Positions 8,347 through 51,970 of a stretch of 64,000 bases of DNA are shown here, in pieces. The position numbers and the translations under genes are program-made. Under the pieces are notes generated by a model that was not told the origin of the DNA, made no database searches, and was given only the letters and a program-made list of their open reading frames with translations. Each line of letters starts with the position of its first letter. Position 1 is the first letter of the stretch. The stretch lies in the IMG/VR virus record IMGVR_UViG_3300025098_005131. One strand, written 5' to 3'. The DNA is from a virus (taxonomy: Duplodnaviria > Caudoviricetes).

Positions 8347-8680
8347 AGTAATACATTACATCTTTTTTGATTTTATCTATATCTTTAGACGCTTCTAGCT
8401 CAATTTCAGAAATATTATAGGAAGTTGAATGTATAAGAACAGCCACAGTATTTTTCTTAAATCTTGTTTCAATTAAAGCGCTAGATTCTCTATTATACTT
8501 AATGATTTCTACGACAAATTGTTCTAGAAACTTTGTTTTTTCAAAACTAAATTTTTTTACAAGCCTTTTTTCTCTTGCTTCCCATGTACTTTTCTTTACT
8601 TCTAAAGGTCTAAAACTATTTTCAACTTCAAACCTCTTGTCTTCATAAAGATAATTTGTCATAATACTTTGTAAATTCAT
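8336..8680 (-). CDS. Pterin-4a-carbinolamine dehydratase-fold protein, degenerate
   Basis: W..RLVKKFSF...FVVEI...V.V.IH....ISEIELEASKDID pattern fits PCD fold, but the HHP catalytic motif is absent; leader ends YLYED. Confidence 0.5.
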   Translation of the reverse strand: MNLQSIMTNYLYEDKRFEVENSFRPLEVKKSTWEAREKRLVKKFSFEKTKFLEQFVVEIIKYNRESSALIETRFKKNTVAVLIHSTSYNISEIELEASKDIDKIKKDVMYYYAD

Positions 8681-8687
8681 TTTTTAC

Positions 8688-11600: not shown

Positions 11601-11804
11601 TAAAAGCGACTTTTCACTCGGATATTTTCCGTTTGACTCAACAAGTGATTTTAAATAACACTTAAATTCTGATTTAGCATCTTTATTGATGTATATGTTT
11701 GTAGAAGATATTTCACTTAAAATGTAATATTTTCTTTTAAAACTCTTGTTTTTTTCGTTTAGTATTTTTTGCGCTCTTAGACGCAGTTTACGTTTATTCA
11801 TCAA
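8688..11804 (-). CDS. Large hypothetical protein (1038 aa), probable internal virion protein
   Basis: Several L/I-x-E motifs in first 145 aa (KILNE, YILSE, DIINEE, SILNE). Confidence 0.7.
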   Translation of the reverse strand: MMNKRKLRLRAQKILNEKNKSFKRKYYILSEISSTNIYINKDAKSEFKCYLKSLVESNGKYPSEKSLLDFYESRYSVKSKSTAAIKNLKETVDLQYSNLGFTTVNDIINEEMSASSIYSNQVDKKLYSIMLEGMKRNISILNEGKTIDLTSMFDDVGPRPEELANIESEEDIDDFSMSGDDSSELGASAGKTIDKIIDIFKPIVGGDPAKMSKQKIATNLGYTGTGKYVPGQKNPVLSGWDVLERDVTSKMSAYGKSSMSIVAKRKWWILKSIECCLMLSSQARFFLGISDEEKSRLDVNNTERDAAASFLKSRGNLNKAGRDAIIKETHAELLKGNYDLNNSAISESRLMMLLKRSSSDNPSKQSEFESALEMMYPLSDNRADFEKAPMQSDEERSDTQKEVEDYFKSKDQQTKQSYAEEIDPETGEPLYADEEEISKINKQKSEDKIETGDIISDIKTSNYFNFTSLEAKEYLQQISRDLERLKYLELKTKDRINPEIFSEFKYDTNGNLIDVPDIIPAEELTVEEKKEFEEIIERFATKDVVKMINDSEREQIYQELVDKAVTVDEFIEYNKKFRLEDADKPMSWEDIKRASAGSFTGSQGARQYGVKSWIKSVFLNFSPSDKAEIYSYIAERWYERLKQLDLIDDQSFVVKRDKVNPSDSTLDKAIPRSVLDKAQAAGKYSRSQKLVDVSNMLELINKYTSPRFVKRYFDEKRDDNLPQAVGEKIRQIQAFADSEEEYDTLMKRLEAEDPDTMAFAIMESMFNDKSGFRIFATGLMKEYYNNIIWPGTEVGLAQSVKEYFKKKYPSAGIAKSLSPNEGAAEVRPDEGKDLFNKIIYIVMERTGIKTSGKGVPNVGQSREEQKDYMRGKSDSRGDFVKAVDTYNRNYQQGKRPLLSKYGSGPFNQDDLEDLIDDMFSPSGIIGKVGSQMKRLNQTSAGEIISWVGDYPEAKLDQAIVLGMGLSDFYRRTGTSEMLTLPVEGIGKDTSKALKDYKKKYKSQLLSKDFVEFLDDYLGIEPVDVSAKGSKNPGGKNFQ

Positions 11805-11808
11805 TCTT

Positions 11809-12210
11809 TTATACCTTTTCTAAAATTTTATTCACTGACTTAAATATTTTTTCAATAACCTTGTTATCTATTTCGCTACTATCGTAGTCGTCTAGTTTAC
11901 TTGCTAGATATGTAGACAACTCTTTTTTGTTTGCAGGCGTATAAACTTCAGGATCCATTCTGGCGCCCATATTTCGCTCAGAATAACCAATATAACCGCC
12001 AGAAACAAAGTCATCAGCCACTAAAGGTAAAATATATTCTTCTTCGTCTGGGATGTCTGTATTTCCTTCTTTATCTATAGGTGCAGGCCTATGGTGAACC
12101 ATGTGTCTTAAGTTAGTAAAACCATCTGGTCGCCCGCTTGCAGATACTTGATTTTCAAATAGAATATCTTTTGCTACTAATCTTAACTCGTTTAATGTTA
12201 TTTTTTTCAT
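11809..12210 (-). CDS. Hypothetical protein, probable internal virion protein
   Basis: Leader MKKITLNELRLVAKDILFE. Confidence 0.75.
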   Translation of the reverse strand: MKKITLNELRLVAKDILFENQVSASGRPDGFTNLRHMVHHRPAPIDKEGNTDIPDEEEYILPLVADDFVSGGYIGYSERNMGARMDPEVYTPANKKELSTYLASKLDDYDSSEIDNKVIEKIFKSVNKILEKV

Positions 12211-12262
12211 ACATAAATACTTTCGTAAAACAAATTAATTATTTGGAACATGCAATTATTAA

Positions 12263-12592
12263 TTAATGATATTCTTCTTTTTTTTCTTTTTTTAAAATAT
12301 CAAAATCAAAGTTGTCATGCAAAATACTTTGTTCAATTAAACTGTGTATGTTGTTTATATAGCTCGTTATAGTATAAAAGTCACTTAAGATTACCTTGTT
12401 TTCGTTTTGAACTTTTAAAATAGCATTTTCTAAAACTTTTATTCTATTATCTTTTTCTTTATTTTCTTTTTTTAAATTTTCAATATCTAATTTAATTAAT
12501 TTAATTTTACTAGCTGTCTCATATAAACCTGCTATTTTTTTATTTAAAAGGAGAATTTTTTTCAATTGCATCGTATAAGTCTTTTTCGTCAA
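12263..12592 (-). CDS. Hypothetical coiled-coil protein (start uncertain)
   Basis: Heptad-like segment LIKLDIENLKKENKEKDNRIKVLENAI; overlaps upstream gene. Confidence 0.6.
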   Translation of the reverse strand: MTKKTYTMQLKKILLLNKKIAGLYETASKIKLIKLDIENLKKENKEKDNRIKVLENAILKVQNENKVILSDFYTITSYINNIHSLIEQSILHDNFDFDILKKEKKEEYH

Positions 12593-12836
12593 TATCTCTT
12601 AGCTTATTAAGCTTCTTCTCTTTTATTTCATCAACTCTTTCGTCAACTAGCCGATGAATGTATTGATCTTCATTAACAAACTTTTCTGCAATCATTCGAA
12701 AAAAAGCTTGCATTGACAATTCTTTTAAAAATAAAGAAGCTCTAAGCTTTCTATGAACTTGCCCAGCAAGTTCAAAGTGTATGGTTTTATTATTGACAAC
12801 TTTTTCTATTTGTTTATTTAAATCTTTTTTACTCAT
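12540..12836 (-). CDS. Putative ribbon-helix-helix DNA-binding protein
   Basis: KTIHFEL strand then VHRKLRASL and SMQAFFRMIAEKFV helices. Confidence 0.55.
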   Translation of the reverse strand: MSKKDLNKQIEKVVNNKTIHFELAGQVHRKLRASLFLKELSMQAFFRMIAEKFVNEDQYIHRLVDERVDEIKEKKLNKLRDIDEKDLYDAIEKNSPFK

Positions 12837-13633
12837 TATCCTTGCTTTAAAGCGCCAGAGCTTGTATCATAGTTTGAATTAAAAATGCTGTATTTTTCGT
12901 TAGGATCACGTGAAGATGATATGCGTGTGTAGAAAGCATCTTCAAAGTCCACAACATATTTTTCAGCATAAAAGCCTGCGTCATTTGCAATTATGTTTTG
13001 CATAGTTATGCAGACAATTTTTTCTTTATCATATTTGTCAAACTTTTCCAAAGTGTCTATTGCAACTTCAACGTATCTTTCAATATCTAAGTTTGGATCT
13101 TTCTTTTTCTTGTTTAACTTTTCATATCCGGAATCAAGAGTATCTTCTAGACCTTCCAGCTCTTTTTCAAGTTTCTTAACATCACTCTTTTCTAGTAGAA
13201 ATTCTGATATGCCTTTTCTAGTATACATTACGTTCTTAGACGCTGCAAGCTTTTGTCTCATATCAAGTGCTAAATCAACATGAGGATCTTTAATTACTTT
13301 TGCTCTTAAGTCTTTAAGGCCTTCAATTCCGTCAATTAAAGCAGCAACTTGTTCTTCAGACACGCCTGTTGTTTGATCTTCAGGATCTGCTGCTTCTTCT
13401 TCTTTTTTGTTTTCTTCTTCATCACTGCTACTAGGGTCGTCGCCTGAACTATCTGAATCTGTGTCTAACAAGCTATCATCAAAACCATCACCTGAATCTT
13501 TTTTGCTTTCTTCTTCGTCACTGCTGCTAGAGTCGTCTGAGTCTTTACTTTCATCGTCTTCGTAAAGCACTCTTAAGCTTACTAGTTTGCTTTCATTCAT
13601 ATGATCATAGATTTTTTTACCAAACTTACTCAT
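12836..13633 (-). CDS. Hypothetical acidic low-complexity protein, probable virion protein
   Basis: Leader ending SLRVLYED; Ser/Asp/Glu-rich tract. Confidence 0.7.
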   Translation of the reverse strand: MSKFGKKIYDHMNESKLVSLRVLYEDDESKDSDDSSSSDEEESKKDSGDGFDDSLLDTDSDSSGDDPSSSDEEENKKEEEAADPEDQTTGVSEEQVAALIDGIEGLKDLRAKVIKDPHVDLALDMRQKLAASKNVMYTRKGISEFLLEKSDVKKLEKELEGLEDTLDSGYEKLNKKKKDPNLDIERYVEVAIDTLEKFDKYDKEKIVCITMQNIIANDAGFYAEKYVVDFEDAFYTRISSSRDPNEKYSIFNSNYDTSSGALKQG

Positions 13634-13642
13634 CTTACTCTC

Positions 13643-14371
13643 CTATAGGATTTTCGAAATCTTTTCAGCTTTTTGAATTCTCTCTTCTATGATATCCCAA
13701 TTAAGTTCTTTCATCATAGCGAAAACATATGCTTTACGATCTTTTAAATAATCCCTGTAATAACTATGCTCCCAACAGTCCATTACCACTATAGGAATGC
13801 AATTAATTAAAACAGAGTCACTATGTAAATCAACTACAGTATTAATATATTTCTTCAAGTTCATGTTGTAAACTGTCATAGCCCAGCCGTTTCTAGCAGA
13901 AAGGCAGCATGCGACAAAGTCTTCTTGCCAAGCATCAAATGTCCCGAAATCTTTTGATAACTTCATGTAAGATAAAGAGTCCATAGAAATATTACTGTTT
14001 AAGTCGCTAATATTTTGAAAATATAATCCATGCAAAAAAGCTGCATTGTGATTGTAAGTTTCGTCTATTTTAAGACTTCTAAATTGAGAATTATTTAAGT
14101 TTGCTTTTGACTTATCTACGCCATCAAGTCTTGCTGATATGTCGTTTAACTCTTTTACATAACCATCTAGCAACTCTTGATGTGCTTTTTTAGTCTTTTG
14201 GGACAACAGTTCAGTTCGCAAATCAAACTTTCCACTTTGCGTCACATATGCTTCAGATATCATTTGACTTTTTTCGTTGCTTCTCTTATTAGTAACAGGC
14301 TCGGTTTTAAGATTGTTTTCTCTTAAAGTTTTTTCAACTGCTTCTTTTACTAATTCATTTAAATCTTTCAT
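13643..14371 (-). CDS. sod: Fe/Mn superoxide dismutase with ~40-aa N-terminal leader
   Basis: KKAHQELL, HNAAFLHGLYF, FGTFDAW, NGWA, MDCWEHSYY (DxWEHxYY) ligand motifs. Confidence 0.92.
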   Translation of the reverse strand: MKDLNELVKEAVEKTLRENNLKTEPVTNKRSNEKSQMISEAYVTQSGKFDLRTELLSQKTKKAHQELLDGYVKELNDISARLDGVDKSKANLNNSQFRSLKIDETYNHNAAFLHGLYFQNISDLNSNISMDSLSYMKLSKDFGTFDAWQEDFVACCLSARNGWAMTVYNMNLKKYINTVVDLHSDSVLINCIPIVVMDCWEHSYYRDYLKDRKAYVFAMMKELNWDIIEERIQKAEKISKIL

Positions 14372-14898
14372 AGTGTAAATTCTCTCTCAAATTCTTTTAT
14401 TTCAACATCAAAAAAAACTTTATCATCACTCTTTATTAAATCATAATCGTTAAATGCAGGAGAGTCTGATGCATTTGTCTCAAATGATCTTTTTGTCTTT
14501 GCATCCGGATTTCTTTTAATAATAGTATTATCTTCAGGCTTTGATTTTTTACTTTTGTCTTTTAACTGTTCACTAGATTTCTTTCTAGCTTTTTCTTTCT
14601 TAACAAACTTTTCTTCTTCGTCACTTTCGTAAATAGGACTTTTTGACTGACTCATAGTTAAATCTTCTAAAGGCTCACCTGAAGAAAGTAGTCTGACATA
14701 TATAATGCCTTCTTTTTCTACTACACCTGCAATTGTATACATAAAGCCGGCTTTGTCTTTTACTTTTAACCCTTTTGCGTTTGCAATTAAATCGTTGTCA
14801 TTGTTATCTTTTACTTCAATTTCTCTTAAGTAGTGATTTATACGAGTATCATATTCCTCACGTAAAAGCCTAATCATTTTTTTCTCGTTAAGACTCAT
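14368..14898 (-). CDS. Hypothetical protein, probable virion protein
   Basis: Leader MSLNEKKMIRLLREE. Confidence 0.7.
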   Translation of the reverse strand: MSLNEKKMIRLLREEYDTRINHYLREIEVKDNNDNDLIANAKGLKVKDKAGFMYTIAGVVEKEGIIYVRLLSSGEPLEDLTMSQSKSPIYESDEEEKFVKKEKARKKSSEQLKDKSKKSKPEDNTIIKRNPDAKTKRSFETNASDSPAFNDYDLIKSDDKVFFDVEIKEFEREFTL

Positions 14899-14912
14899 TT
14901 TGATTCCTTACT

Positions 14913-17900
14913 TTATTTATATATATTCCAAAGTCTACGCCACTCTTTCTCCAGACTCGAAGAATTAACGCTGTCTTTCTTATTATATACTCTTTTAACC
15001 ACGCTTAAATCTTCTTTGTTACTACTCTCAAACAATAAATTAGTTAAACTACCTAGTATGTAGTCACTACTACTTTTATTTGATTTGTTTTCTAACTTTA
15101 GATTTTCTTCATTGTCCATCAAATCTTTAAACAACGCTTTCTTTACAGAATTACTATCTTCATCTAAAAATTTTCGTAAAAAATTTTTAACTTCTTTTTT
15201 GTAATCTTTTATTTTATTAGATTTAGGATAATAAATGTAATAATCGACGTTTTCCTCACTGCCAGTTTGAATTTTTTGCTTAAATTTGAATAAATTCAAG
15301 GTTCCATCAGATATTTGAGTTTTGCTGAACGACTCAAAATTCACCGGGGCGCCAAATGGTCCCGAGCTGATTGAAGCACATGTGAATTTATTTTCATGAA
15401 CAAATCCTACTATAAACGCAGTGTTTTCTTTTTTATACACGACTGGTAATAACAAATTTTTATCAAGTTTATTACCGTCTAAAAATTTTACCAAATTCTT
15501 CCGGAAGTCAATATTGCTACTGATTTCCTTTCTGGACACGCAAGTATTATCTGTATAAAAGTCCTGAAGCACAGATACTTCAACTTTTAAACTAGACAAC
15601 TTGCTGTTTGAAGATGATGATTTTGATTTATCTTTAGAAGGCTGTAATATATTGCCATCATCATCTTCTGTTCCATCTTGTGGTTCTTGTCCTGATTTAT
15701 CTTTATAAGCCTGTGATTCTGGCTCATCTGCGTCTATAAAACTAGCATTTAAGTTTGAAAAATCAAAACTGATGTTTTCAACGTCTAAATTACTAAACGA
15801 ATTTCCTATATCTTCAGGTGTAAGAGGAATATCATGTTGCACGGTAGTTTGATTAAACTCTTCCACGAGTTGTTGACCAGCATTATCTCCGAGTGAATCT
15901 TTTGCAGCTTCTAATCTATTAGAAACTGCAGTTTGTAAAGTAACTGCTTTTACTTCAGCTTTACTTGTAGCTTGCTTTACATTTTCAATTGTTGCGTTGT
16001 AGTAATATGAAAGTAATAAATTTAGACTTTCGATAAACTCGTTTTTAACTGCTGATATGTCTGCTGGAGAACTGGCGTATTTAGAATCATACATTAAGAC
16101 TTTATTTCTTGTTAGTATATCTTCAAAGTCTTTTCTTTTAATCTCTTTTTTCTTTATTTCTTTCTTTCTGCTCTTTTTGCCGATTACATCAAAATCTTTA
16201 AGCTCAAATAAAAGCTCTGTCAAAGATCTTTCGTGAACATAGATACCTTCAACAATTTTCGCATCTTTTAGAGCTTCGATTATTGAAGAGTCTAATCCTT
16301 TTAGATGCTTCTTAGCTTCCGCATCAATTTTTTTTGTTAAATCAGATTTATTTACTTCATCTTTCTGCACAGGACCAAGTCCTACAGTGCTATGACCAAT
16401 TAAAGCGCCAACAGGCATACCAAGAATACCTGCAGTAGCAAGTGCTACAGCACCTAAACCACCAGTTGCAATAGCGCCTAGAACACCAACAGTTAAAGGA
16501 ATGGCAGCACCAACCCCAAACCTAAAGCCTTCCTTTCGAACTTGTTCTTTCTTGGCATCAAGCATTTCTTTTTCGTACTTCTCTTGAGCTTCACGACGCT
16601 TCTCGTTATATGCTTTTTCATCTTCTGCTTCGAGAAGCTTTCTACTTATGCTCTTACATAATTCTTCTAACTGCGAATCTTTTGCTTCTTCTTCACTAGG
16701 TTCTACTCCGTAAAATAACTCACACTGGTCTTTATATTCTTGACAACCATTAATTATTTCTTGAACTTTTTCTTCATCACCTTGAAAGAGATCATTTAAA
16801 ACTTCTTTCATAATTTCTTCAATTGGAGTTGGTTCTTGATTAAGATTAGATCTTAAAACATAGAAAATCAAGCTTTTAAATTCTCTTTCTTTTACATGCC
16901 TCTGAAAGTTTTCAAACAAGCTGTCAATAAGCTTACCATCAAAGTCAAACATAGGAGAAAAAGAAAAATACTTTAAAATCGTAGCCAACTCATCAACGTC
17001 TTTTCCTTGTAGTAATTTTGCAAAGAAATCTTCGTAACTTTTTTCTTCTTCTCTTATCTTTCTTGCAACAAAATTTAAAATAGGCTTATTCTTTAAAACA
17101 AGATTTCTCTGCGTGCTTGAACTTCCTATATTCACTGTTTTTAATACTTTATTAAATCTTTGACAAGTTTCGTTTACTCTTTTCTTAAACTCATCCAGAC
17201 TCTCAATATAAGTACTTTGGTCTTCATCACTACCAGCAGATTCTGTTGCAGCGGCTGTAATTGCTGCTTCTAGCGACTTAGGCACTTTGTTGTTAAATAT
17301 GTCTGTATATAATTGATCAGGCTCAAGATCTTTTTCTAACTTAATCTTTAGTTCTTGAAGATCTGAAGTAATAATAGAGTTAAACGACTTAAGCAAAGCA
17401 TCGTCTACAGGCTTAGCATCGTTATCACCATACAACAGTTTTTTTATAGTTTCACTCGAATTAGTGTCATCTTTTTGTAGTGCTTCTTTTTGTTTATCAC
17501 TACCGCTAGCGTACAAGTTTCTAGCAAGGACTATATTTGGTTCTTCAGATTGTTCTTGTCTATTTACGATTAAAGATAGACTTCTTTCAAGTTCTCTAGC
17601 TGCGTTTTCTAATCTACCTTTAAAGTCTGTCGGGCTTGGTGGTTTAGTTGGCGGTTTAGACTCAGGTTGTACTACCTGTTCTTCTTCTGGCTGCACTTGG
17701 TCATCTTGAGAAGCACTTTCATCTGATGGCTCGTTATCTTCGAGATTCTCGCCGCTTAAGTTTTCAATAGCAGCTTCCGAAGCTTTATGTGAAGCTTTTA
17801 TTACCTGCGCAAATTCATACGCTAGTTGCTCATTATAGATACCCCAGAACTTTTGAGTTTCAATATGTTTACATATTCTAGCAAGTCTTTGTTCGCTTTT

Positions 17901-22005: not shown

Positions 22006-22896
22006 CTAAGGTATTATGTGTGCCGATCGAATACTAACTGTAAGATTTATAGCACAATCTTCAGGTAAAGACATTTCTTTGGCGGTTTTAACGCTAAGTA
22101 TCTTAAGAAATTCATAGTCAGCCCATAAAGTTTTTGATACGTTTGAAGACCTTAGAGTAGCCGATACATTTAATTTATTTTGACGCCACAAAACATGAAT
22201 TATTGAAATGCAACTATCATCAGTGTATACAAATCTCCTACTATCATGTTTTTGGGCTTGATTATACTCGTTTAGACCTGTAAACTCTCTAAATATTTTA
22301 TTGAAAAACTCAAACTCAATTTTTTCATAGTACTCTTTTTCTTGAGGAAAGTCTAGCACAGTTAAATCCAATTGGTTTTTATCAACTACTTCTTTACATT
22401 GAACATCAACAAGCTCGTTTCTTCCGCTGTTAAGCACTAAAGACTTTATTAATTCTTGCCCTGGCATTTCGTTTAAAGAATTAATGAACTGTAGTAATTT
22501 GTTAATGTTTCTATCTAAGTCATCTTCTTCAAGAACTAAAACATTAGGATAAGAACCAAAACCCATTTTAGCAATATTTCTAAAATAGCTTCTTACTTTT
22601 AAAATACTGTCCTTATCTTGAAACTCGTCACCTCTTTTTTCCAGTCTGTCAAGAATAGTTGATTCAGAAGGTAGAAGTAATATGTAAAGTGTGTCTAGTC
22701 GTTTAAGATCGTCTAAAATTTTATCAAACCAAAGTGATGCATCTTCTCTTTCATACATCTTTGCATAAACAAACATAGACATACAACTTCTGTCTTGAAT
22801 ATTATACTTAAAGTTAGTTTTTTTATGAAGTTGATTGTATAGTGTAGTTTTACCACTACAATCAGGACCTTCAATATTAATATTAAAAAATCGCAT
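22006..22896 (-). CDS. Fusion: dNMP (thymidylate-like) kinase + truncated thymidylate synthase/dCMP hydroxymethylase-fold domain
   Basis: N-term NIEGPDCSGKTT and IQDRS; C-term SRR, catalytic Cys exactly 20 residues before RS, RSSNVSKTLWAD, SAH. Confidence 0.85.
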   Translation of the reverse strand: MRFFNINIEGPDCSGKTTLYNQLHKKTNFKYNIQDRSCMSMFVYAKMYEREDASLWFDKILDDLKRLDTLYILLLPSESTILDRLEKRGDEFQDKDSILKVRSYFRNIAKMGFGSYPNVLVLEEDDLDRNINKLLQFINSLNEMPGQELIKSLVLNSGRNELVDVQCKEVVDKNQLDLTVLDFPQEKEYYEKIEFEFFNKIFREFTGLNEYNQAQKHDSRRFVYTDDSCISIIHVLWRQNKLNVSATLRSSNVSKTLWADYEFLKILSVKTAKEMSLPEDCAINLTVSIRSAHIIP

Positions 22897-35544: not shown

Positions 35545-36531
35545 CTACTTAGGAAAGAATTGTTTTAGATCGATATCTTGCTCTTTAGCTTGATCTAAAT
35601 ATTTTAAAGGATTATAAAAGTAGATATTTGAATCTTTAATTGATTGCCAAGATTGTCGAATGCCTTCCTTTAAATCTCTTGTCCTACTAAAGCCCAAGGT
35701 ATCTACAAGTTTTTTATTGCTTAACCTATGATTTCCAAGATAATCAGTTTGTGGGTGCCATTGTATTACAGGCTTTAAATTAAGACCAGTTACTTCTTCT
35801 ATTAATTCTACAATTTCCAAAGTATTATGTGGGTTTTCTGCTGTAATATTGAAATCGTCGTTTAATATATTGTTTGTAATTAAGTCCATTATACTACTAC
35901 AAAAGTCCTCAACATGCATATAGTCTTTTATTTTTTCTGGATTTAAAAACATATCTAAACTATTTATTTTGTTTTTTAAACAGAACAAAGACTTAGATAT
36001 AAGAGAGTTCATGTCACCTTCTCCGCCGTAAGCAAATAGCGGTCTCACGACGAGCCAGCTTTTAGCGTTATTTTTAACTGTCATTTCACCTGCATATTTT
36101 TGAATTGCATAGTTTGTCCTAGGTAATATTTTGCTATCTTCAAAAATATCAGATTCTTGATATTGATATGTATCATAAATAACTGTCGTTCCAATATATA
36201 CGATCGTTGTGTTTGTATTATTAGCAGCTTCAGTTAGAACATGTGTGCCTAATATGTTTGTATTAATTGCTCGCTCAGGGTTTAATGCAACTACATCTGT
36301 ACCTACTAGGGCTGCATTGTGAACAATAACGTCAAGCTCTAAGTCTGAAAGTAGTTGTGACCACTCTTCAATAGAATTTCTATATACACAAACTTCTCCT
36401 ACTCCTGTACGAATATAATCTTGTGAATAAATACTTTTATCTAACGATACAAAAGTATGATTATAATTTTCTATTTGATTAGCCAAGTTAGTTGCAATAA
36501 AACCTTTTTCACCAGTGATGCCTATTCTCAT
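35545..36531 (-). CDS. NAD-dependent NDP-sugar epimerase/dehydratase (extended SDR)
   Basis: ITGEKGFIA, VHNAA, YAIQK (YxxxK), RPLFAYG, HVEDF. Confidence 0.92.
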   Translation of the reverse strand: MRIGITGEKGFIATNLANQIENYNHTFVSLDKSIYSQDYIRTGVGEVCVYRNSIEEWSQLLSDLELDVIVHNAALVGTDVVALNPERAINTNILGTHVLTEAANNTNTTIVYIGTTVIYDTYQYQESDIFEDSKILPRTNYAIQKYAGEMTVKNNAKSWLVVRPLFAYGGEGDMNSLISKSLFCLKNKINSLDMFLNPEKIKDYMHVEDFCSSIMDLITNNILNDDFNITAENPHNTLEIVELIEEVTGLNLKPVIQWHPQTDYLGNHRLSNKKLVDTLGFSRTRDLKEGIRQSWQSIKDSNIYFYNPLKYLDQAKEQDIDLKQFFPK

Positions 36532-37296: not shown

Positions 37297-37450
37297 CAGT
37301 TATCTTATTGCCTATTACATAAATCATTGCAGAAAAATTTAGATCTTTTTTAATCTTATAGACTATCCCTAACTTTTCTTCTTCGTTCGAGTAAAGAAAA
37401 TTATATCTAATTAGGTCGCCTATTTTCAGGTCGTGTATATAATCTATCAT
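37244..37450 (-). CDS. Small SH3/KOW-like hypothetical protein
   Basis: LKIGDLIRY ... LGIVYKI pattern. Confidence 0.7.
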   Translation of the reverse strand: MIDYIHDLKIGDLIRYNFLYSNEEEKLGIVYKIKKDLNFSAMIYVIGNKITDVVPYSIMEYKVLDRKN

Positions 37451-38265
37451 TGAAAATCTCTTTTTTTAGCTCCGATCGTTTGTCTTTCTCTAACCCAGTG
37501 TGTTGTCCTTTTATCGAGCGTCGTTTCTTTAATTACATTATGACCATTACAGTCTTTGTTTCTTCCATAAACAACAAAACCTTGAACAGCATTCCCATTA
37601 TTACCATCAAAAGTATAGTAACTTTGAATTGTTGCTCCTTGTTCATTATATGACTTGTTAATTACAAATCTTATCGCTTTATAAAGAGTTATCAGGTTTT
37701 TGTCTGTTAAATCTTTTATTAAAGAATGTGGATTTATACGTGAATACCATAAAGATTCTGCCTTGATATAATTACCAACTCCAGAAATAACCTTTTGATT
37801 CATCAATACATCACATATATTTTTGTTGTTTTTTTGTCTTAAAAATTTAATAAAATCAGATGAAGAAGGGGGATTAGACAACATGTCAGGCCCAATAGAT
37901 TTAAGCTTTTTTGCCAAATCTTTTTGATTTTTAATCTGAACTGTTCCAAAATTTCTAATATCATTGAAATACAATGTATCGTCCTCATAAAAGTTAATCT
38001 CTATTCTAGAATGATCTGTTTTTTTTCTAGACCAGTTTCCTGTCATTCCTAAAGTATTGAAAATAATTATGTCTTCTAAATCAAGCCATATAAACTTGCC
38101 TTTACAATTAAAGCTTTTAATTTCTTTGTCTAATAATGTTTCTAGGTTTGGAATTGGTTTTTTAATATATCTTCCGCTCAATATATTAACTGACTTTATT
38201 TGATAATGTCTAAAATTTTGATTTAGTTTATCAACAAACAATTTAACTTCAGGTCCTTCTGGAAT
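37447..38265 (-). CDS. fpg: Fpg/Nei DNA glycosylase-AP lyase, zincless-finger type, ATT start
   Basis: Extending 8 codons upstream of the track start gives (ATT)-PEGPEVKLF; KGKF, LGMTG, NDIRNFG, LMNQKVISGVGNYIKAESL (H2TH). Confidence 0.93.
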   Translation of the reverse strand: MPEGPEVKLFVDKLNQNFRHYQIKSVNILSGRYIKKPIPNLETLLDKEIKSFNCKGKFIWLDLEDIIIFNTLGMTGNWSRKKTDHSRIEINFYEDDTLYFNDIRNFGTVQIKNQKDLAKKLKSIGPDMLSNPPSSSDFIKFLRQKNNKNICDVLMNQKVISGVGNYIKAESLWYSRINPHSLIKDLTDKNLITLYKAIRFVINKSYNEQGATIQSYYTFDGNNGNAVQGFVVYGRNKDCNGHNVIKETTLDKRTTHWVRERQTIGAKKRDFQ

Positions 38266-38518: not shown

Positions 38519-38968
38519 TTATTCAATTGCATCTGCATAAGGTTCATTTGGTAAGATACCTGTTTCAATAATTCTATCAAGATAGTCTTCTAATTGTTCA
38601 AATGTTGTGCAGACCTTAATACCACTTCTCGCGAGCATTAAATTAAATTTTGCGCCTTTAGGAAGTCCGGCACAGAAATAGATTATAGGCTTATTAAATG
38701 CAAAAGCGTATCCTGCTTCCCAAATTGTACCAATATCTTTATCTCTAGTATTTACTAGTAAAAAGTCTGCTGTCTGTATATGATGAAGATTGCCACTAAA
38801 TGTTTCATCTTGCACGCTTTTTGGCGCATTAGGCGGGCAAACAAAAATTCTTCGAGGAGAAGCTAGTTCAAAGTGGTTAACTCGATCATCAAAAATCTTT
38901 TCCAGATGTGTAAGTTCTGCGTCTTGAATAGGATTAAACCAACCGCTTGCTAAATAAATCTTTTTCAT
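38519..38968 (-). CDS. Nucleoside 2-deoxyribosyltransferase / dNMP N-glycosidase family
   Basis: KIYLASGWF, ADFLL, DIGTIWEAGYAFAFNKPII. Confidence 0.9.
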   Translation of the reverse strand: MKKIYLASGWFNPIQDAELTHLEKIFDDRVNHFELASPRRIFVCPPNAPKSVQDETFSGNLHHIQTADFLLVNTRDKDIGTIWEAGYAFAFNKPIIYFCAGLPKGAKFNLMLARSGIKVCTTFEQLEDYLDRIIETGILPNEPYADAIE

Positions 38969-39021: not shown

Positions 39022-39993
39022 TTAAAATTCATTATCTAGCTGCTGTCTAATTAAACTTACAGCTGCTACGTCATCGTTCCACATCCTTGTAAAGATTTTT
39101 TCTTCACCAGATTTGTTGCCATTAATCTCTTCACGACGACATGCATAAATTGAATCTTTTTCATTAAATTCAAATAAATCGTTCTTTGGTTCTGGCTGAT
39201 AAAGATTTGTGCCTCGTGAAGTAAAGGAACCATCGGGTAATTCAACTCTAAAAGTGCGAACATAATGCATGTCAGGTTTTTCAAAGTTTAAGCATGTAGA
39301 AACTTCTGGAATTGATTCGCAAACAATTTTTGCAATACGCGTTGCAATAATATTGTCTACTTCTGGTTGAATTTGCACATCTTGACGCTGTCTAATAAAA
39401 CCAATTAAATCTTTAAGATTAAATCGAGCAACGTAAAAAGTCTCAAGTGCCTTAGGCAAAATAACTCGTGCATCCATTAAAGACACAACTCGAGAATCAA
39501 CCATATCAGAATAAAGTTGTTTTGCTGCAGAAGCAACTTCAATAAATCGATGATGAAAGTCTGAATTTTCAACAGACTCAGGAACTAAAATGTTGTCATT
39601 CCTAAGATCACGATCACCGGTGCACTGCGCTGCAAATGAACCTGCTCTATGTCTAATTAAATGCGTCACTGTTTGTGTATCAATTCCGCTAATTTTAAAA
39701 GTAAAACCTAAACATTCCATAGGTGTAGGTAATGCTCTAAAATTAAGAACATCTTGTAAGTTAATTGAAGCTTCTTCTGGTAAAGCATTTTCAAATGAAG
39801 TCTCAGAAGGTGTGTCAGCCCAGGTTGCTTTGGTCATGTGCCAAGCAATTTTTTGAGCTTGTTCTCTAGTGGGCCCATCAATCAACTCAATGTTAAGTGA
39901 TTCTAAGTTATTAATGTAATTAGTATTAGGAACTTGATCAAATTTAAGCTCCATAGGAAGTGTGACTTGTTTAAGATCATTATTAATTGGCAA
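39022..39993 (-). CDS. Divergent ThyX-like flavoprotein (second copy, altered active site)
   Basis: FTFKISGI ... HLIRHRAGSFAAQCTGDR, DARVILP, NLKDLIGFIRQR; TTG start with SD AAGGAG. Confidence 0.85.
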   Translation of the reverse strand: MPINNDLKQVTLPMELKFDQVPNTNYINNLESLNIELIDGPTREQAQKIAWHMTKATWADTPSETSFENALPEEASINLQDVLNFRALPTPMECLGFTFKISGIDTQTVTHLIRHRAGSFAAQCTGDRDLRNDNILVPESVENSDFHHRFIEVASAAKQLYSDMVDSRVVSLMDARVILPKALETFYVARFNLKDLIGFIRQRQDVQIQPEVDNIIATRIAKIVCESIPEVSTCLNFEKPDMHYVRTFRVELPDGSFTSRGTNLYQPEPKNDLFEFNEKDSIYACRREEINGNKSGEEKIFTRMWNDDVAAVSLIRQQLDNEF

Positions 39994-40020
39994 ATTTATT
40001 CTCCTTTGTATTTACCATTT

Positions 40021-40049
40021 ATTTTAATATTAAAAATTAAAATTTACAC
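40021..40049 (-). promoter_or_regulatory. Putative promoter GTGTAA-N17-TAAAAT upstream of ThyX-like gene
   Basis: Recurring motif pair. Confidence 0.6.
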
Positions 40050-40716: not shown

Positions 40717-41091
40717 TTAATACCCTTTTGTTAACCTTTCTTTAATTATCTCGTCTTTCTTTTTAAATGCATTGTAAAATTCGTCAACATCTACACCTAT
40801 TAAAATAATAAGAGAATAAAAGTAATTAAAAGCATCAACAATTTCTTCTAAAAACTCTTCTCTATTTATTTCTGGCACTTCTGTTTCTCTATGCGGCTTC
40901 CAGTTTTTTAAATGACCTAGTGCTTCAAACATTTCTTCTACACCTTTAAGAGCTGTTTCACGCAGTAAAGCTTGACTACTTTTACTTGAAATATTTACTG
41001 GCCAAGACGGATATGAATCTTTATATTTTTCTTTAATTAAGTGCATAAAGACTTCTCTTTTTTCAAAGATTTCGTCTAATCTATCTTGCAT
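40717..41091 (-). CDS. All-alpha dNTP pyrophosphatase (dimeric dUTPase/dCTPase/MazG superfamily)
   Basis: VEEMFEAL ... WKPHR ... EEFLEEIVDAFNY acidic motifs. Confidence 0.88.
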   Translation of the reverse strand: MQDRLDEIFEKREVFMHLIKEKYKDSYPSWPVNISSKSSQALLRETALKGVEEMFEALGHLKNWKPHRETEVPEINREEFLEEIVDAFNYFYSLIILIGVDVDEFYNAFKKKDEIIKERLTKGY

Positions 41092-41705: not shown

Positions 41706-42410
41706 CTATTTATTATTGAGAATATAACTTTCTACTGTGACTGGCCAAAGTTCCTGAATAATCTCAAGCATTTTACTAGCCAATGCTTGAATTTCTAGCT
41801 GTGATCCTTCATGAGTTCTAAGCTTAATAAATTTTAAAATATTATTTAGATTAGCAGTCGCATAATATTCTGTATATAGATTTTGAGGAAGAATCATTCT
41901 TGCTTGCTCACGAGCAATACCTTTTTTAATCATATCATAATATAATTTAACAGAATTTTGTACGTGATAATCTACAGCTTCATTACATAGCCTACTTTCA
42001 AGTAAAATCGGATAAGAATCCATTTGTGGATTAATTTGGTTATCTATGTTAGATGCTTGTCTATTAGACTTATGCTGCGTCCTATAAGATTTTGGAATAT
42101 AAAATTCCATGTTTACATCTGTATATCGACGTGATATTTCATTATAAGACCATGTCCTATGTCTATGGTGTTGTGATCTAACAAATAAAGGAACTTTTAT
42201 TCTAAATGTAGCAATGTTATGTTCTAAAGTAGAAGTATGTTGATGATCAATTAAATAATTGATCAGCTTTTTGTCTTTACTATCTAAAGTTTCTTTCTGG
42301 ACTCCAAAAGAAACACGAGCAGAATTAACAACAGTAATATCGTTACCCATATGTTGTACTAGCTCTATTTTTCCAATATTGTCTTTATAAAGATAATGTG
42401 TATTTGTCAT
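41706..42410 (-). CDS. thyX: FAD-dependent thymidylate synthase
   Basis: NSARVSF, HTSTLEH, RHRTWSYNEISRRY canonical motif, EQARMILP. Confidence 0.96.
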   Translation of the reverse strand: MTNTHYLYKDNIGKIELVQHMGNDITVVNSARVSFGVQKETLDSKDKKLINYLIDHQHTSTLEHNIATFRIKVPLFVRSQHHRHRTWSYNEISRRYTDVNMEFYIPKSYRTQHKSNRQASNIDNQINPQMDSYPILLESRLCNEAVDYHVQNSVKLYYDMIKKGIAREQARMILPQNLYTEYYATANLNNILKFIKLRTHEGSQLEIQALASKMLEIIQELWPVTVESYILNNK

Positions 42411-42436: not shown

Positions 42437-42465
42437 ATTATATTAAATTAAAACATAATTTACAC
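42437..42465 (-). promoter_or_regulatory. Putative promoter GTGTAA-N17-TATAAT upstream of thyX
   Basis: Recurring motif pair. Confidence 0.7.
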
Positions 42466-51941: not shown

Positions 51942-51970
51942 ATTATATTATAGATTTTTAATTTTTACAC
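51942..51970 (-). promoter_or_regulatory. Putative promoter GTGTAA-N17-TATAAT heading the SSB-recA-nuclease-helicase-dut-nrdAB-trx-clpP-amidase operon
   Basis: Recurring motif pair; about 90-nt AU-rich leader follows. Confidence 0.7.

What the first reader, a model, noticed from the sequence alone, without database searches (positions are those of the whole stretch)
39022..39993. Second ThyX with a rewired substrate pocket
Seen: the canonical copy has RHRTWSYNEISRRY, while this one has RHRAGSFAAQCTGDR. The FAD-binding RHRxxS is kept, but positions equivalent to T. maritima N85, E86, S88, R90 and Y91 are A, A, C, G and D. It has N- and C-terminal extensions (323 versus 234 aa). Established: E86/S88/R90 contact dUMP. 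Inference: a flavoenzyme acting on a different nucleotide or doing different C5 chemistry.
Basis: partly seen in the sequence, partly recalled or inferred. Interest (0 to 1): 0.75.

Follow-up and report, generated by a model that had tools for sequence, protein, structure and literature searches.

The report
Repurposed ThyX enzyme in ocean phages
An uncultured marine giant phage carries, beside a normal flavin-dependent thymidylate synthase, a second copy from a large undescribed phage-only branch whose methyl-transfer residues are replaced by a new conserved loop and which travels with nucleotide-modification genes, so it probably makes a modified DNA building block rather than thymidylate.

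Summary
ORF 39022-39993 (-) encodes a 323-aa ThyX-fold protein (AlphaFold pLDDT 95.7). Three alignments put A, A, C, G and D at T. maritima N85, E86, S88, R90 and Y91, and Leu or Ala at the folate-stacking H53. The FAD contacts and nucleotide arginines R147 and R174 are kept.

This is not decay. dN/dS is about 0.09, tighter than the canonical copy. The loop C-[TS]-G-D-x-D-x-R defines a clade with 100% branch support and over 100 sequence clusters, all from phage-like contigs where context was seen.

The clade coexists with a canonical ThyX in two unrelated phage lineages. It scores below NCBI's ThyX cut-off. Unlike ordinary phage ThyX genes (5 of 67), it sits within 5 kb of an NDT-like enzyme, a mini nucleotide kinase or a MazG-type pyrophosphatase (17 of 18). 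A cytosine-type mini-ThyA protein often follows it, and some relatives are fused to a glycosyltransferase domain.

Best reading (0.55): a flavoenzyme making a C5-hydroxy or C5-hydroxymethyl pyrimidine deoxynucleotide for phage DNA. Main rival (0.2): an unorthodox dTMP synthase. No biochemistry exists, and I found no published description.

First readers of this scan flagged the same paralogue in windows of at least six other genomes.

The parts
39022..39993 (-). ThyX-like ORF, 323 aa, TTG start. ThyX fold with about 20 extra residues at the N-terminus and about 81 at the C-terminus.
   Evidence: Pfam Thy1, 69 bits; NCBIfam thyX 52 bits, below the 87.9 cut-off; AlphaFold pLDDT 95.7; Foldseek: ThyX structures, target TM about 0.75.
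39601..39639 (-). Codons for residues 119-131, the rewired active-site loop S-F-A-A-Q-C124-T-G126-D127-R-D129-L-R131. Cys124 is encoded at 39622-39624.
   Evidence: mapping to S88/R90/Y91. (family conservation: Cys 75%, Gly 75%, Asp 75% plus Glu 10%, Asp 65%, Arg 65%). (sequence).
39727..39738 (-). Codons for R86-A87-L88-P89, the segment that replaces the canonical H-x-H(53) folate-stacking histidine.
   Evidence: L88 opposite H53; A87 opposite H53; Leu in 88% of the family; role of H53 from PMC11940539.
40021..40049 (-). Promoter-like element GTGTAA-N17-TAAAAT heading the ThyX-like/NDT-like gene pair.
   Evidence: 18 such motifs in the window against 4.8 expected; none of 100 shuffles reached 18..
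40001..40006 (-). Shine-Dalgarno AAGGAG, 7 nt before the TTG start.
38519..38968 (-). NDT-like (nucleoside 2'-deoxyribosyltransferase family) gene starting 53 nt downstream, with the catalytic D-x-G-T-x-W-E-x-G motif intact. It is the most constant neighbour.
   Evidence: PDB 6EVS, E 1e-8; adjacent in 79 of 80 marine loci. Also near the gene in GR1, L083, L084 and L086.
40717..41091 (-). MazG-like all-alpha nucleoside-triphosphate pyrophosphohydrolase, upstream neighbour.
   Evidence: within 5 kb in 68 of 80 marine loci and 9 of 18 other new-loop loci, against 4 of 67 canonical-loop loci.
22006..22896 (-). 296-aa fusion of a small Tmk-like kinase (residues about 1-140) and a 'mini-ThyA' domain (residues about 141-296: catalytic Cys, R-S-S-N, cytosine-type Asp). 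It is the recurrent partner of the clade.
41706..42410 (-). Canonical ThyX, 234 aa, all motifs intact, with its own GTGTAA promoter at 42465-42437.
   Evidence: 169 bits; E 1e-39 to T. maritima and T. thermophilus ThyX.
37447..38241 (-). Fpg/Nei-family DNA glycosylase-like gene downstream, with no GTGTAA promoter motif in between, so probably in the same transcription unit.
   Evidence: H2TH and Fapy_DNA_glyco domains; present near the gene in many relatives; next minus-strand promoter motif at 36966-36938.
35545..36531 (-). NDP-sugar epimerase/dehydratase-like gene, syntenic in most relatives. Its link to the pathway is not established.

Best explanation
The gene encodes a member of a large, phage-specific and apparently undescribed clade of ThyX-fold flavoproteins that is no longer a thymidylate synthase in the canonical sense.

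Shown here:
- It keeps the ThyX fold.
- It keeps the FAD-contact residues (R114-H115-R116, T90, N192, K194).
- It keeps the nucleotide-binding arginines (R114, R176, R203 = T. maritima R78, R147, R174).
- It has replaced as a block the residues that canonical ThyX uses to stack folate and pass the methylene group to dUMP: H53 to Leu, N85 to Ala, S88 to Cys, R90 to Gly, and the Tyr91 'lid' to Asp. In their place is a new conserved loop, C-[TS]-G-D-x-D-x-R.

Inferred mechanism:
1. A pyrimidine deoxynucleoside monophosphate still stacks on the flavin. I lean towards dCMP, with dUMP possible.
2. With the lid and the folate clamp gone, the reduced flavin delivers an oxygen-bearing group to C5. I favour hydroxylation with O2. 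Hydroxymethylation by hydration of a flavin-relayed methylene is the alternative. Cys124, or the Cys of the linked mini-ThyA protein, would activate C6.
3. The linked mini-kinase takes the product towards the triphosphate for incorporation by the phage polymerase.
4. The MazG-type pyrophosphatase and the NDT-like enzyme trim or recycle the competing normal nucleotide.
5. In some lineages a glycosyltransferase, methyltransferase or radical-SAM enzyme decorates the base further.

The canonical ThyX in the same genome continues to make dTMP.
For: 1. Fold and cofactor site are kept. AlphaFold pLDDT 95.7. Foldseek matches ThyX structures at about 3.3 A over about 213 residues. FAD contacts listed in PMC6514825 map to conserved or conservative residues.

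2. The catalytic apparatus is replaced. S88 and Y91 are 'strictly conserved' and critical, Y91 mutants are about 1000-fold slower, H53 stacks the folate and is held by Y91 and N85 (PMC11940539), and Y108(Mtb) is the lid over C5/N5 (PMC6514825). All are substituted here and across the clade.

3. The protein scores 52 bits against the 87.9-bit NCBIfam ThyX equivalog cut-off, as do eight other clade members tested.

4. It is a real, constrained clade. 138 clusters at 50% identity score E<=1e-10. One branch with SH-aLRT 100 holds all new-loop sequences and no canonical ones. dN/dS is 0.087, against 0.186 for the canonical ThyX in the same phages.

5. It is not redundant. A canonical ThyX and the ThyX-like gene coexist in the complete 284-kb marine relative and two further marine contigs, and in an unrelated complete 96-kb group-B phage.

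6. Linkage is clade-specific. Outside the marine lineage, 17 of 18 new-loop loci have an NDT-like gene, a mini Tmk-like kinase or a MazG-domain gene within 5 kb, against 5 of 67 canonical-loop phage ThyX loci. A cytosine-type mini-ThyA lies immediately downstream in 8 of 18 against 0 of 67. It is present in 5 of 5 marine relatives and 0 of 5 canonical-loop control contigs.

7. There are hints that the product carries a hydroxyl. A conserved GT-A glycosyltransferase/ThyX-like fusion occurs in at least 5 proteins that have diverged to 36-41% identity. GR1 has a glycosyltransferase whose only cultured relatives, phage G gp313 and gp306, sit beside a ThyA-fold cytosine-type hydroxymethylase-like gene, whereas GR1 has no ThyA-fold gene at all. 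O-methyltransferase and radical-SAM neighbours occur in other lineages.

8. There is a precedent for flavin-plus-O2 C5 hydroxylation of dCMP by thymidylate-synthase relatives, in the ThyA fold (PMC13326640).
Against: No enzymology, and no analysis of DNA from any phage that carries the gene.

In GR1 and four complete small phage genomes the protein is the only thymidylate-synthase-family gene. Its usual neighbours (kinase, NDT, nucleotidase, pyrophosphatase) would also suit a plain dTTP-supply module.

R174, which in ThyX contacts the uracil, is kept, and that argues for a uracil rather than a cytosine substrate.

Cys124 is absent from 25% of members, and the His of RHR from 60%.

The mini-ThyA partner is missing from three complete new-loop genomes.

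Loss of H53 does not by itself abolish folate binding: an H53A mutant was crystallised with folate (PDB 4GTF title).

Linkage counts use loci that are not phylogenetically independent.

The glycosyltransferase model is only moderate (pLDDT 63.5), and the GR1 'alpha-glucosyltransferase' label is an unverified annotation.
Confidence: 0.55

Rival explanations
1. It is still a dTMP synthase. On this view it belongs to a divergent ThyX lineage that reaches the same product with a different active-site loop, for example using Cys124 as a ThyA-style nucleophile, or a different reductant or one-carbon donor. In giant phages it is kept beside the canonical copy for different conditions or stages of infection.
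For: It has the Thy1 fold and scores over the Pfam threshold. R78, R147, R174 and the FAD contacts are kept. It is the sole thymidylate-synthase-family gene in GR1 and in four complete small phages. Kinase, NDT-like, HD-nucleotidase and dUTPase-type neighbours fit a dTTP supply role.
Against: All of S88, Y91, R90, N85 and H53 are substituted, and these are described as critical or strictly conserved for methylene transfer. The protein scores below the NCBIfam equivalog cut-off. It coexists with a canonical ThyX in two unrelated lineages under tighter constraint than that copy. Ordinary phage ThyX genes do not share its neighbours. Its links to a cytosine-type mini-ThyA, glycosyltransferase fusions, methyltransferases and radical-SAM enzymes are hard to explain for a dTMP synthase.
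Confidence: 0.2
2. It is the flavin component of a two-protein enzyme. The ThyX-like protein only binds and reduces flavin with NAD(P)H, and hands reduced flavin (or a flavin adduct) to the mini-ThyA protein. That protein has the nucleotide site and catalytic Cys but no cofactor pocket, and performs the C5 chemistry on dCMP.
For: The mini-ThyA lies immediately downstream, with overlapping or abutting reading frames, in GR1, L094-L096, L098-L100 and L102, and occurs in all marine relatives checked. It keeps only the nucleotide-binding and catalytic half of ThyA, with Cys146, N177D and, in the window copy, D169N. D169N is reported as diagnostic of flavin-dependent 5-hydroxy-dCMP synthases whose flavin is loosely bound. 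GR1 also has a nitroreductase-type flavin reductase next to the gene.
Against: Three complete genomes have the ThyX-like gene but no detectable mini-ThyA or ThyA, so the ThyX-like enzyme must be able to work alone. The nucleotide-contacting arginines and a new conserved Cys/Asp loop are under selection in the ThyX-like protein itself. That selection is not expected of a mere reductase.
Confidence: 0.12
3. It makes a free modified base or nucleoside and not a DNA precursor. The ThyX-like enzyme modifies a nucleotide, and the NDT-family enzyme then removes or swaps the base. This would resemble the thymidylate-synthase-like plus NDT-family glycosidase pairs of nucleoside-antibiotic pathways (MilA/MilB and BcmA/BcmB, recalled from my own knowledge). 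The product could be a metabolite that acts on the host.
For: The NDT-like gene is the most constant neighbour, adjacent in 79 of 80 marine loci and present in distant lineages. It has an intact catalytic motif. MilA is cited as a CMP hydroxymethylase of the thymidylate synthase family in PMC13326640.
Against: Dedicated nucleotide kinases and NTP pyrophosphatases in the same modules point towards a triphosphate for DNA synthesis. The modules always sit among replication genes, next to PolA, PolB or DnaE polymerases. DNA-glycosylase-type neighbours (Fpg/Nei, UDG superfamily) suggest that DNA is where the product ends up.
Confidence: 0.08
4. It is a non-catalytic ThyX relic that only binds flavin or a nucleotide, for example as a regulator or a structural subunit.
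For: Key catalytic residues of ThyX are gone.
Against: A new, conserved, polar Cys/Asp/Arg loop has replaced them rather than random drift. The cofactor and nucleotide arginines are nearly invariant, dN/dS is about 0.09, and both extensions are conserved and confidently folded.
Confidence: 0.05

Closest known systems
Canonical flavin-dependent thymidylate synthase ThyX/FDTS (T. maritima TM0449, M. tuberculosis ThyX; Pfam Thy1 PF02511, NCBIfam TIGR02170)
   Same: Same fold: target TM about 0.75 and about 20% identity. The RHR motif, the FAD contacts and the R78/R147/R174 equivalents are kept.
   Different: H53, N85, S88, R90 and the Tyr91 lid are replaced by Leu, Ala, Cys, Gly and Asp. There are about 20 extra N-terminal and about 81 extra C-terminal residues. 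The score is below the equivalog cut-off. It forms a separate, fully supported clade and has different gene neighbours.
PolB of Streptomyces cacaoi, a ThyX-fold UMP/dUMP C5-methylase of polyoxin biosynthesis (PDB 4P5A/4P5B)
   Same: It is the only ThyX-fold entry among the structural matches whose title gives a substrate other than dUMP alone. It is structurally similar to the query (target TM 0.72, rmsd 3.3 A).
   Different: By its PDB title PolB is still a methylase. The family profile scores it lower than ordinary ThyX structures, so the query is no closer to PolB than to ordinary ThyX. I did not check PolB's active-site loop.
Flavin-dependent 5-hydroxy-dCMP synthases of the ThyA fold (RB69 gp48, DLP3 gp80, HY126 AfhB; Lee et al. 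2026, PMC13326640)
   Same: Both are phage thymidylate-synthase relatives that have dropped folate chemistry for flavin chemistry to make a C5-oxygenated pyrimidine dNMP, which a cognate kinase then activates and glycosyltransferases decorate. This is the mechanism I propose by analogy. The window's mini-ThyA partner shares their Cys146, N177D and D169N signature.
   Different: The fold is entirely different: ThyA, not ThyX. The ThyX-like protein is not a member of this family. Its product is unknown.
Phage T4 pre-replicative cytosine replacement module (dCTPase gp56, dCMP hydroxymethylase gp42, dNMP kinase gp1, glucosyltransferases)
   Same: The same logic of parts is seen around this clade: an NTP pyrophosphatase, a thymidylate-synthase-derived modifying enzyme, a dedicated kinase, and in some lineages a glycosyltransferase.
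   Different: The modifying enzyme is of the ThyX fold and not the ThyA fold. An NDT-family enzyme is an additional constant member. The T4 comparison rests on textbook knowledge and was not tested here.
Corynebacterium glutamicum atypical ThyX (PDB 3FNN/3GE9)
   Same: A ThyX-fold protein that its PDB title reports as not required for thymidylate biosynthesis. It is among the best profile and fold matches.
   Different: It is a cellular protein of normal length. I did not check whether it has the new loop. There is no evidence of a relationship to the phage clade beyond the shared fold.

Membership tests
ThyX / flavin-dependent thymidylate synthase (EC 2.1.1.148) | ThyX (Thy1) fold | tested here: met
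   AlphaFold model pLDDT 95.7. Foldseek: T. maritima, M. tuberculosis and T. thermophilus ThyX, probability 1.0, target TM 0.66-0.77.
ThyX / flavin-dependent thymidylate synthase (EC 2.1.1.148) | Pfam Thy1 (PF02511) above the gathering score | tested here: met
   69.2 bits against a 24.8 cut-off. The canonical copy scores 169 bits.
ThyX / flavin-dependent thymidylate synthase (EC 2.1.1.148) | NCBIfam equivalog TIGR02170 above its curated cut-off | tested here: not met
   52.0 bits against an 87.9 cut-off. Eight other clade members score 29-52 bits.
ThyX / flavin-dependent thymidylate synthase (EC 2.1.1.148) | ThyX signature RHR-x7-S-x-R-Y (S88, R90, Y91 of T. maritima) | tested here: not met
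   The query reads RHR-x7-C-T-G-D. In the clade, Cys is found in 75%, Gly in 75% and Asp/Glu in 85%. S88 and Y91 are described as strictly conserved and critical (PMC11940539).
ThyX / flavin-dependent thymidylate synthase (EC 2.1.1.148) | Folate-stacking His53 held by Asn85 and Tyr91 | tested here: not met
   Leu88 or Ala87 lies opposite His53, Ala121 opposite Asn85 and Asp127 opposite Tyr91. Leu is found in 88% of the clade.
ThyX / flavin-dependent thymidylate synthase (EC 2.1.1.148) | FAD-contact residues (RHR; Mtb Ser71, Asn188, Arg190) | tested here: met
   R114-H115-R116, T90, N192 and K194, by alignment. This is sequence evidence only. Flavin binding was not measured, and the His is kept in only 40% of the clade.
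ThyX / flavin-dependent thymidylate synthase (EC 2.1.1.148) | dUMP contacts (Mtb R95, R199, R172 from one side; R87, S105, R107 from the other) | tested here: inconclusive
   R114, R203 and R176 are kept (97-100% in the clade). The S105, R107 and R87 equivalents are Cys, Gly and Thr.
ThyX / flavin-dependent thymidylate synthase (EC 2.1.1.148) | Makes dTMP from dUMP; complements thyA | not testable with these tools
   Needs expression and assay.
ThyA-fold flavin-dependent 5-hydroxy-dCMP synthase (RB69 gp48 type) | ThyA fold with Cys146, N177D and D169N | tested here: not met
   The ThyX-like protein has the ThyX fold. The signature is instead found in the linked mini-ThyA domain at 22006-22896, which lacks the N-terminal half of ThyA.
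Pre-replicative nucleotide-modification module (T4 type) | Modifying enzyme linked to an NTP pyrophosphatase and a dedicated dNMP kinase | tested here: met
   A MazG-like gene is adjacent. The kinase fusion is at 22006-22896. Linkage is clade-specific, 17 of 18 against 5 of 67.
Pre-replicative nucleotide-modification module (T4 type) | Virion DNA contains the modified base | not testable with these tools
   Needs nucleoside LC-MS of phage DNA. Geobacillus phage GR1 is the cultured candidate.
PolB-type ThyX-fold UMP/dUMP methylase | Closer to PolB than to ordinary ThyX | tested here: not met
   The family profile gives E 1.7e-8 to 4P5A against 1e-17 to M. tuberculosis ThyX. Fold similarity is comparable to that with other ThyX structures.

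The most novel reading that the evidence does not exclude
A whole branch of the ThyX family, common in abundant marine giant phages and scattered through many other phages, is a flavin-dependent pyrimidine C5-hydroxylase or C5-hydroxymethylase. It often works with a stripped-down ThyA-fold partner, which would make a hybrid of the two unrelated thymidylate-synthase folds. These phages would then carry a modified, sometimes glycosylated or methylated, pyrimidine in their DNA that has not been recognised.
Probability: 0.3. Interest if true: 0.9.

Novelty: new variant of a known kind. Interest (0 to 1): 0.75.

Why it matters
In the papers I could search, the phage enzymes that make modified pyrimidine precursors (hydroxymethyl-dCMP, hydroxymethyl-dUMP, 5-hydroxy-dCMP) are of the ThyA fold. 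The ThyX fold is described there only for uracil methylation.

A ThyX-derived modifying enzyme would add a second evolutionary route to DNA base modification, and possibly new flavin chemistry.

The clade is large, with over 1000 database proteins, many of them from seawater. If it marks a modified base, a sizeable share of ocean giant-phage DNA would be chemically different from what sequencing suggests. That would affect restriction and CRISPR evasion, and it could bias sequencing.

It also means that 'thymidylate synthase ThyX' annotations on these genes are probably wrong.

The hypothesis is directly testable, because one carrier, Geobacillus phage GR1, is in culture.

Tried and rejected
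- Complex prediction with two copies of the ThyX-like protein plus the mini-ThyA domain returned no verdict (score 0.00). This is no evidence either way.
- The search for related loci with the group-A alignment A3 failed for lack of a conserved stretch.
- tblastn of a group-B member against cultured phages found only two weak Streptomyces-phage hits. GR1 remains the only clear cultured carrier found.
- The next-best cultured hits, Mycobacterium phage Onyinye and Moorella phage MTATph1, have canonical-type loops.
- The GR1 glycosyltransferase and the P0134 N-terminal domain gave no sequence-level PDB match. The 'alpha-glucosyltransferase' name is therefore unverified.
- Iterating the mini-ThyA profile found no further copies.
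- Public runs: the DNA is in many marine metagenomes, but only one RNA run holds 7% of the sampled words, and I did not lay reads. I make no claim of expression.
- Literature searches for ThyX with hydroxymethyl, DNA modification, 'ThyX-like' or deoxyribosyltransferase found no description of this clade. Subscription journals are not covered. PMC4744818, the ThyX mechanism paper, is not held.
- I considered and rejected decay or pseudogenisation (dN/dS 0.09, intact in over 1000 copies).
- I considered and rejected an obligatory two-protein enzyme (three complete genomes lack the partner).
Full report
**Setting**

The window is a low-GC (about 31%) stretch of an uncultured marine giant phage. 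Nearly all genes are on the minus strand. They encode replication and nucleotide-metabolism functions: DnaE-type and mini PolA polymerases, DnaB, RecA-like and gp32-like proteins, ribonucleotide reductase, a dUTPase-like protein, dCMP deaminase, thymidine kinase and ClpP. Relatives in IMG/VR reach 284 kb.

**Observation**

ORF 39022-39993 (-) encodes 323 aa from a TTG start. An AAGGAG ribosome-binding site lies 7 nt upstream. A GTGTAA-N17-TAAAAT element of the phage's recurrent promoter class lies further upstream; this motif occurs 18 times in the window against 4.8 expected.

- The protein is a Thy1-family member at 69 bits, where the canonical ThyX at 41706-42410 scores 169 bits.
- Three alignments place A121, A122, C124, G126 and D127 opposite T. 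maritima N85, E86, S88, R90 and Y91. They are phmmer to T. maritima ThyX, the family profile to M. tuberculosis ThyX, and a profile-profile alignment to canonical ThyX at probability 99.96%.
- A naturally occurring intermediate loop (QQGGRDNDWR) supports this register.
- The folate-stacking His53 is also missing. Leu88 or Ala87 takes its place, depending on the alignment.
- The core aligns as residues 21-242 to the whole canonical protein. That leaves about 20 N-terminal and about 81 C-terminal extra residues.
- Alignments A1/A2 and the model lack the start codon, so their residue numbers are one lower than the full-length numbers used here.

**Structure**

An AlphaFold model built from 78 family sequences is very confident throughout, extensions included (pLDDT 95.7, pTM 0.92). 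It matches only ThyX-fold structures: T. maritima, M. tuberculosis and T. thermophilus ThyX and the UMP/dUMP methylase PolB, with target TM 0.66-0.77 and about 20% identity.

**What is kept and what is lost**

Figures below are across 72 diverged relatives, 20-45% identical to the query.

| T. maritima residue | Query residue | Frequency of that residue in the clade |
|---|---|---|
| R78 | R114 | 100% |
| R80 | R116 | 93% |
| E58 | E93 | 89% |
| R147 | R176 | 97% |
| R174 | R203 | 99% |
| H53 | L88 | Leu 88% |
| S88 | C124 | Cys 75% |
| R90 | G126 | Gly 75% |
| Y91 | D127 | Asp 75%, Glu 10% |
| (new) | D129 | Asp 65% |
| (new) | R131 | Arg 65% |
| H79 (His of RHR) | H115 | His 40% |

- The FAD contacts listed for M. 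tuberculosis ThyX (RHR, Ser71, Asn188, Arg190; PMC6514825) map to R114-H115-R116, T90, N192 and K194.
- According to PMC11940539, Ser88 and Tyr91 are strictly conserved and critical. Tyr91 mutants oxidise flavin about 1000-fold more slowly during methylation. His53 stacks the folate pterin and is held by Tyr91 and Asn85. Arg90 tunes Tyr91.
- According to PMC6514825, the equivalent Tyr108 is a lid over uracil C5 and flavin N5.
- The protein therefore keeps the cofactor and part of the nucleotide site, but has exchanged the whole methylene-transfer and folate apparatus for a different conserved loop.
- It scores 52 bits against the 87.9-bit cut-off of NCBI's ThyX equivalog model, as do other clade members.

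**A real clade under selection**

- More than 1000 proteins match in the large database, many from Tara and other marine samples.
- An exhaustive search of 50%-identity representatives finds 42 clusters at E<=1e-30 and 138 at E<=1e-10.
- In a maximum-likelihood tree of 162 Thy1 proteins, a branch with 100% SH-aLRT support separates 75 sequences, and no canonical-loop sequence falls on that side. The 75 are all 48 with the recognisable new loop plus 27 loop variants. The intermediates lie just outside.
- Against 37 marine orthologues with unsaturated synonymous divergence, dN/dS is 0.087. The canonical ThyX of the same phages gives 0.186, and the NDT-like neighbour 0.085.
- In the closer marine relatives (for example L004-L006, L008 and L009) the ThyX-like protein is 91-94% identical to the window's, where the canonical ThyX is only about 69-70% identical.

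**Redundancy**

- The complete 284-kb marine relative has both genes 234 kb apart. Two further marine contigs also have both, and none has a ThyA.
- An unrelated, complete 96-kb phage of the other subgroup (group B) also has both.
- Geobacillus phage GR1, the only clear cultured carrier (43% identity), has the ThyX-like gene as its only thymidylate-synthase-family gene. So do four complete phage genomes of 38-70 kb.

**Gene neighbourhood**

In 80 marine loci, an NDT-family gene directly follows in 79 and a MazG-like pyrophosphatase is nearby in 68. The NDT-like protein resembles a Bacillus nucleoside 2'-deoxyribosyltransferase (PDB 6EVS, E 1e-8) and keeps the catalytic Glu motif.

Outside the marine lineage I compared 18 distinct new-loop loci with 67 phage loci whose ThyX has a canonical-type loop.

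| Neighbour within 5 kb | New-loop loci (n = 18) | Canonical-loop loci (n = 67) | Fisher p |
|---|---|---|---|
| NDT-like | 6 | 0 | 4e-5 |
| Mini Tmk-like kinase | 11 | 1 | 2e-8 |
| MazG-domain protein | 9 | 4 | 5e-5 |
| Any of the three | 17 | 5 | not calculated |

The loci are not phylogenetically independent. These modules sit on phage backbones with PolA, PolB or DnaE replicases.

Further neighbours in new-loop loci are UDG-superfamily proteins, radical-SAM enzymes, TylF-type and CMAS-type methyltransferases, and an all-alpha dUTPase-type domain.

**A second recurrent partner**

The window's 296-aa gene at 22006-22896 fuses a small kinase to a domain that I verified as the nucleotide-binding and catalytic half of the ThyA fold.

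- Its family profile hits ThyA structures (E 3e-5). The hits include the 5-hydroxy-dCMP synthase entries 9IQC/9IQU and T4 dCMP hydroxymethylase.
- The S-R-R phosphate clamp, Cys146, R166-S167 and an invariant Asp at the N177 position (cytosine type) are conserved.
- Position 169 is Asn in the window copy. Lee et al. 2026 report D169N as diagnostic of flavin-dependent 5-hydroxy-dCMP synthases.
- Free-standing homologues of this mini-ThyA lie immediately downstream of the ThyX-like gene in GR1 and seven other distant loci. That is 8 of 18 new-loop loci against 0 of 67 canonical-loop loci.
- All five marine contigs checked have the fusion. Five phage contigs with a canonical-loop ThyX, four of them rated 100% complete, have none.
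- Three complete new-loop genomes lack it and lack any ThyA. It is therefore a frequent partner, not an obligatory one.

**Clues to the product**

- Five proteins of 541-577 aa from different metagenomes fuse a conserved N-terminal domain to a new-loop ThyX-like domain. The N-terminal domains have diverged to 36-41% identity.
- That domain has an invariant H-D-N-D motif and a weak GT2 Pfam hit. It has GT2-type look-alikes in the ESM Atlas (score 0.97).
- In a moderate model (pLDDT 63.5, core confident) it shows a GT-A glycosyltransferase fold, matching TarS, SpsA, GnT-I and others at E about 1e-6, together with some related nucleotidyltransferases.
- GR1 encodes, four genes upstream of the ThyX-like gene, a glycosyltransferase of PHROG 2888 (E 6e-53).
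- The only cultured relatives of that glycosyltransferase are Bacillus phage G gp313 and gp306. These sit beside a ThyA-fold enzyme with the cytosine-type Asp (gp319), a kinase (gp315) and a sugar-nucleotide gene.
- GR1 has no ThyA-fold gene. There the ThyX-like enzyme, with its own kinase, mini-ThyA and an adjacent nitroreductase-type flavin reductase, occupies the place that a hydroxymethylase occupies in phage G.
- These points suggest a product with a hydroxyl that can be glycosylated or methylated.

**Mechanism proposed**

Shown here: the fold, retention of the cofactor and nucleotide arginines, loss of the methylene-transfer residues, clade coherence, selection, coexistence with a canonical ThyX, and the gene linkage.

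Inferred:
1. A pyrimidine dNMP still stacks on the flavin.
2. Without the Tyr lid and the folate clamp, reduced flavin reacts with O2 to hydroxylate C5. Alternatively it relays a methylene that is hydrated and not reduced.
3. Cys124 or the mini-ThyA Cys acts as the C6 nucleophile.
4. The kinase activates the product for the phage polymerase.
5. The pyrophosphatase and the NDT-like enzyme deplete or recycle the normal nucleotide.

The cytosine-type partner, the two new loop aspartates and the presence of a normal dTMP pathway make me lean towards dCMP. The retained Arg174 equivalent argues for a uracil. The substrate is open.

**Rivals**

- An unorthodox dTMP synthase remains possible (0.2), chiefly because small phages carry this gene alone and its neighbours also suit dTTP supply.
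- A pure flavin-donor role for the mini-ThyA (0.12) is weakened by genomes that lack that partner.
- A free-base metabolite pathway through the NDT-like enzyme (0.08) is the third alternative.
- A non-catalytic relic (0.05) is the least likely.

**Comparison and novelty**

The protein is a ThyX-fold, Pfam-Thy1 protein, but it fails the defining signature, the folate histidine and the curated equivalog threshold. I do not file it as a thymidylate synthase.

It may work like the ThyA-fold 5-hydroxy-dCMP synthases or like the T4 hydroxymethylase module, but it is not a member of those families.

I found no paper describing this clade or its pairing in the open literature searched. First readers of this scan flagged the same paralogue in windows of at least six other genomes.

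I rate it a new variant of a known kind, with high interest because it is widespread, mechanistically unexpected and directly testable in a cultured phage.

Noticed in passing
window 22006-22896 (-); L001:9969-10424; L095:11312-11857; L100:10974-11492; L102:10990-11502: A 'mini-ThyA' lies directly after the ThyX-like gene in distant phages and is fused to a kinase in the marine lineage. It is the nucleotide-binding half of the ThyA fold with the catalytic Cys and a cytosine-type Asp. Remnants of the two unrelated thymidylate-synthase folds thus appear as gene partners.
   Followed up: yes
window 37447-38241 (-): An Fpg/Nei-family glycosylase gene probably shares the transcription unit with the ThyX-like and NDT-like genes. 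UDG-superfamily genes occupy a similar place next to group-B ThyX-like genes (L120:10781-11374, L093:11130-12017, L084:10879-11754). From general knowledge, Nei-type enzymes remove 5-hydroxypyrimidines. A dedicated glycosylase might clear deamination products of a modified cytosine.
   Followed up: partly
L170 (Bacillus phage G, JN638751) 4647-5693 and 9001-15954: Phage G gp319, annotated as thymidylate synthase, is a ThyA-fold enzyme with Asp at the N177 position (cytosine type). It sits near two paralogous glycosyltransferases, a kinase, a HAD phosphatase and a glucose-1-phosphate thymidylyltransferase. This suggests glycosylated modified cytosine in phage G DNA.
   Followed up: partly
P0153 (515 aa) and P0270 (700 aa): Two clade members are interrupted or extended by mobile elements: an HNH/His-Me endonuclease domain, and an intein with Hint and homing-endonuclease parts.
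   Followed up: no
L101:11218-12270, L103:11568-12623, L093:10558-11130, L086:11487-12272: Radical-SAM, TylF-type O-methyltransferase and CMAS-type methyltransferase genes lie within two genes of new-loop ThyX-like genes in different phage lineages. This suggests several different downstream elaborations of the same precursor.
   Followed up: partly
L094, L095, L096, L101, L103, L120: ORFs of 404-449 aa directly upstream of the ThyX-like gene: These large proteins have a C-terminal MazG-like or dUTPase_2-like domain and an N-terminal part of unknown function. They are a constant upstream neighbour in group B.
   Followed up: partly
window, 18 sites, for example 40021-40049, 42437-42465, 51942-51970: The GTGTAA-N16-19-TAnnnT promoter-like motif is about fourfold enriched (18 found, 4.8 expected). 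It precedes both ThyX genes, so both are probably in the same temporal class.
   Followed up: partly
L001 (GR1) 8286-8885: A nitroreductase-family NAD(P)H flavin reductase gene lies immediately upstream of the GR1 ThyX-like gene. It could be a supplier of reduced flavin.
   Followed up: no
window 35545-36531 (-): An NDP-sugar epimerase/dehydratase gene is syntenic with the module in most marine relatives (43-81% identity). I found no glycosyltransferase among the window ORFs of 100 aa or more that I scanned with Pfam.
   Followed up: partly
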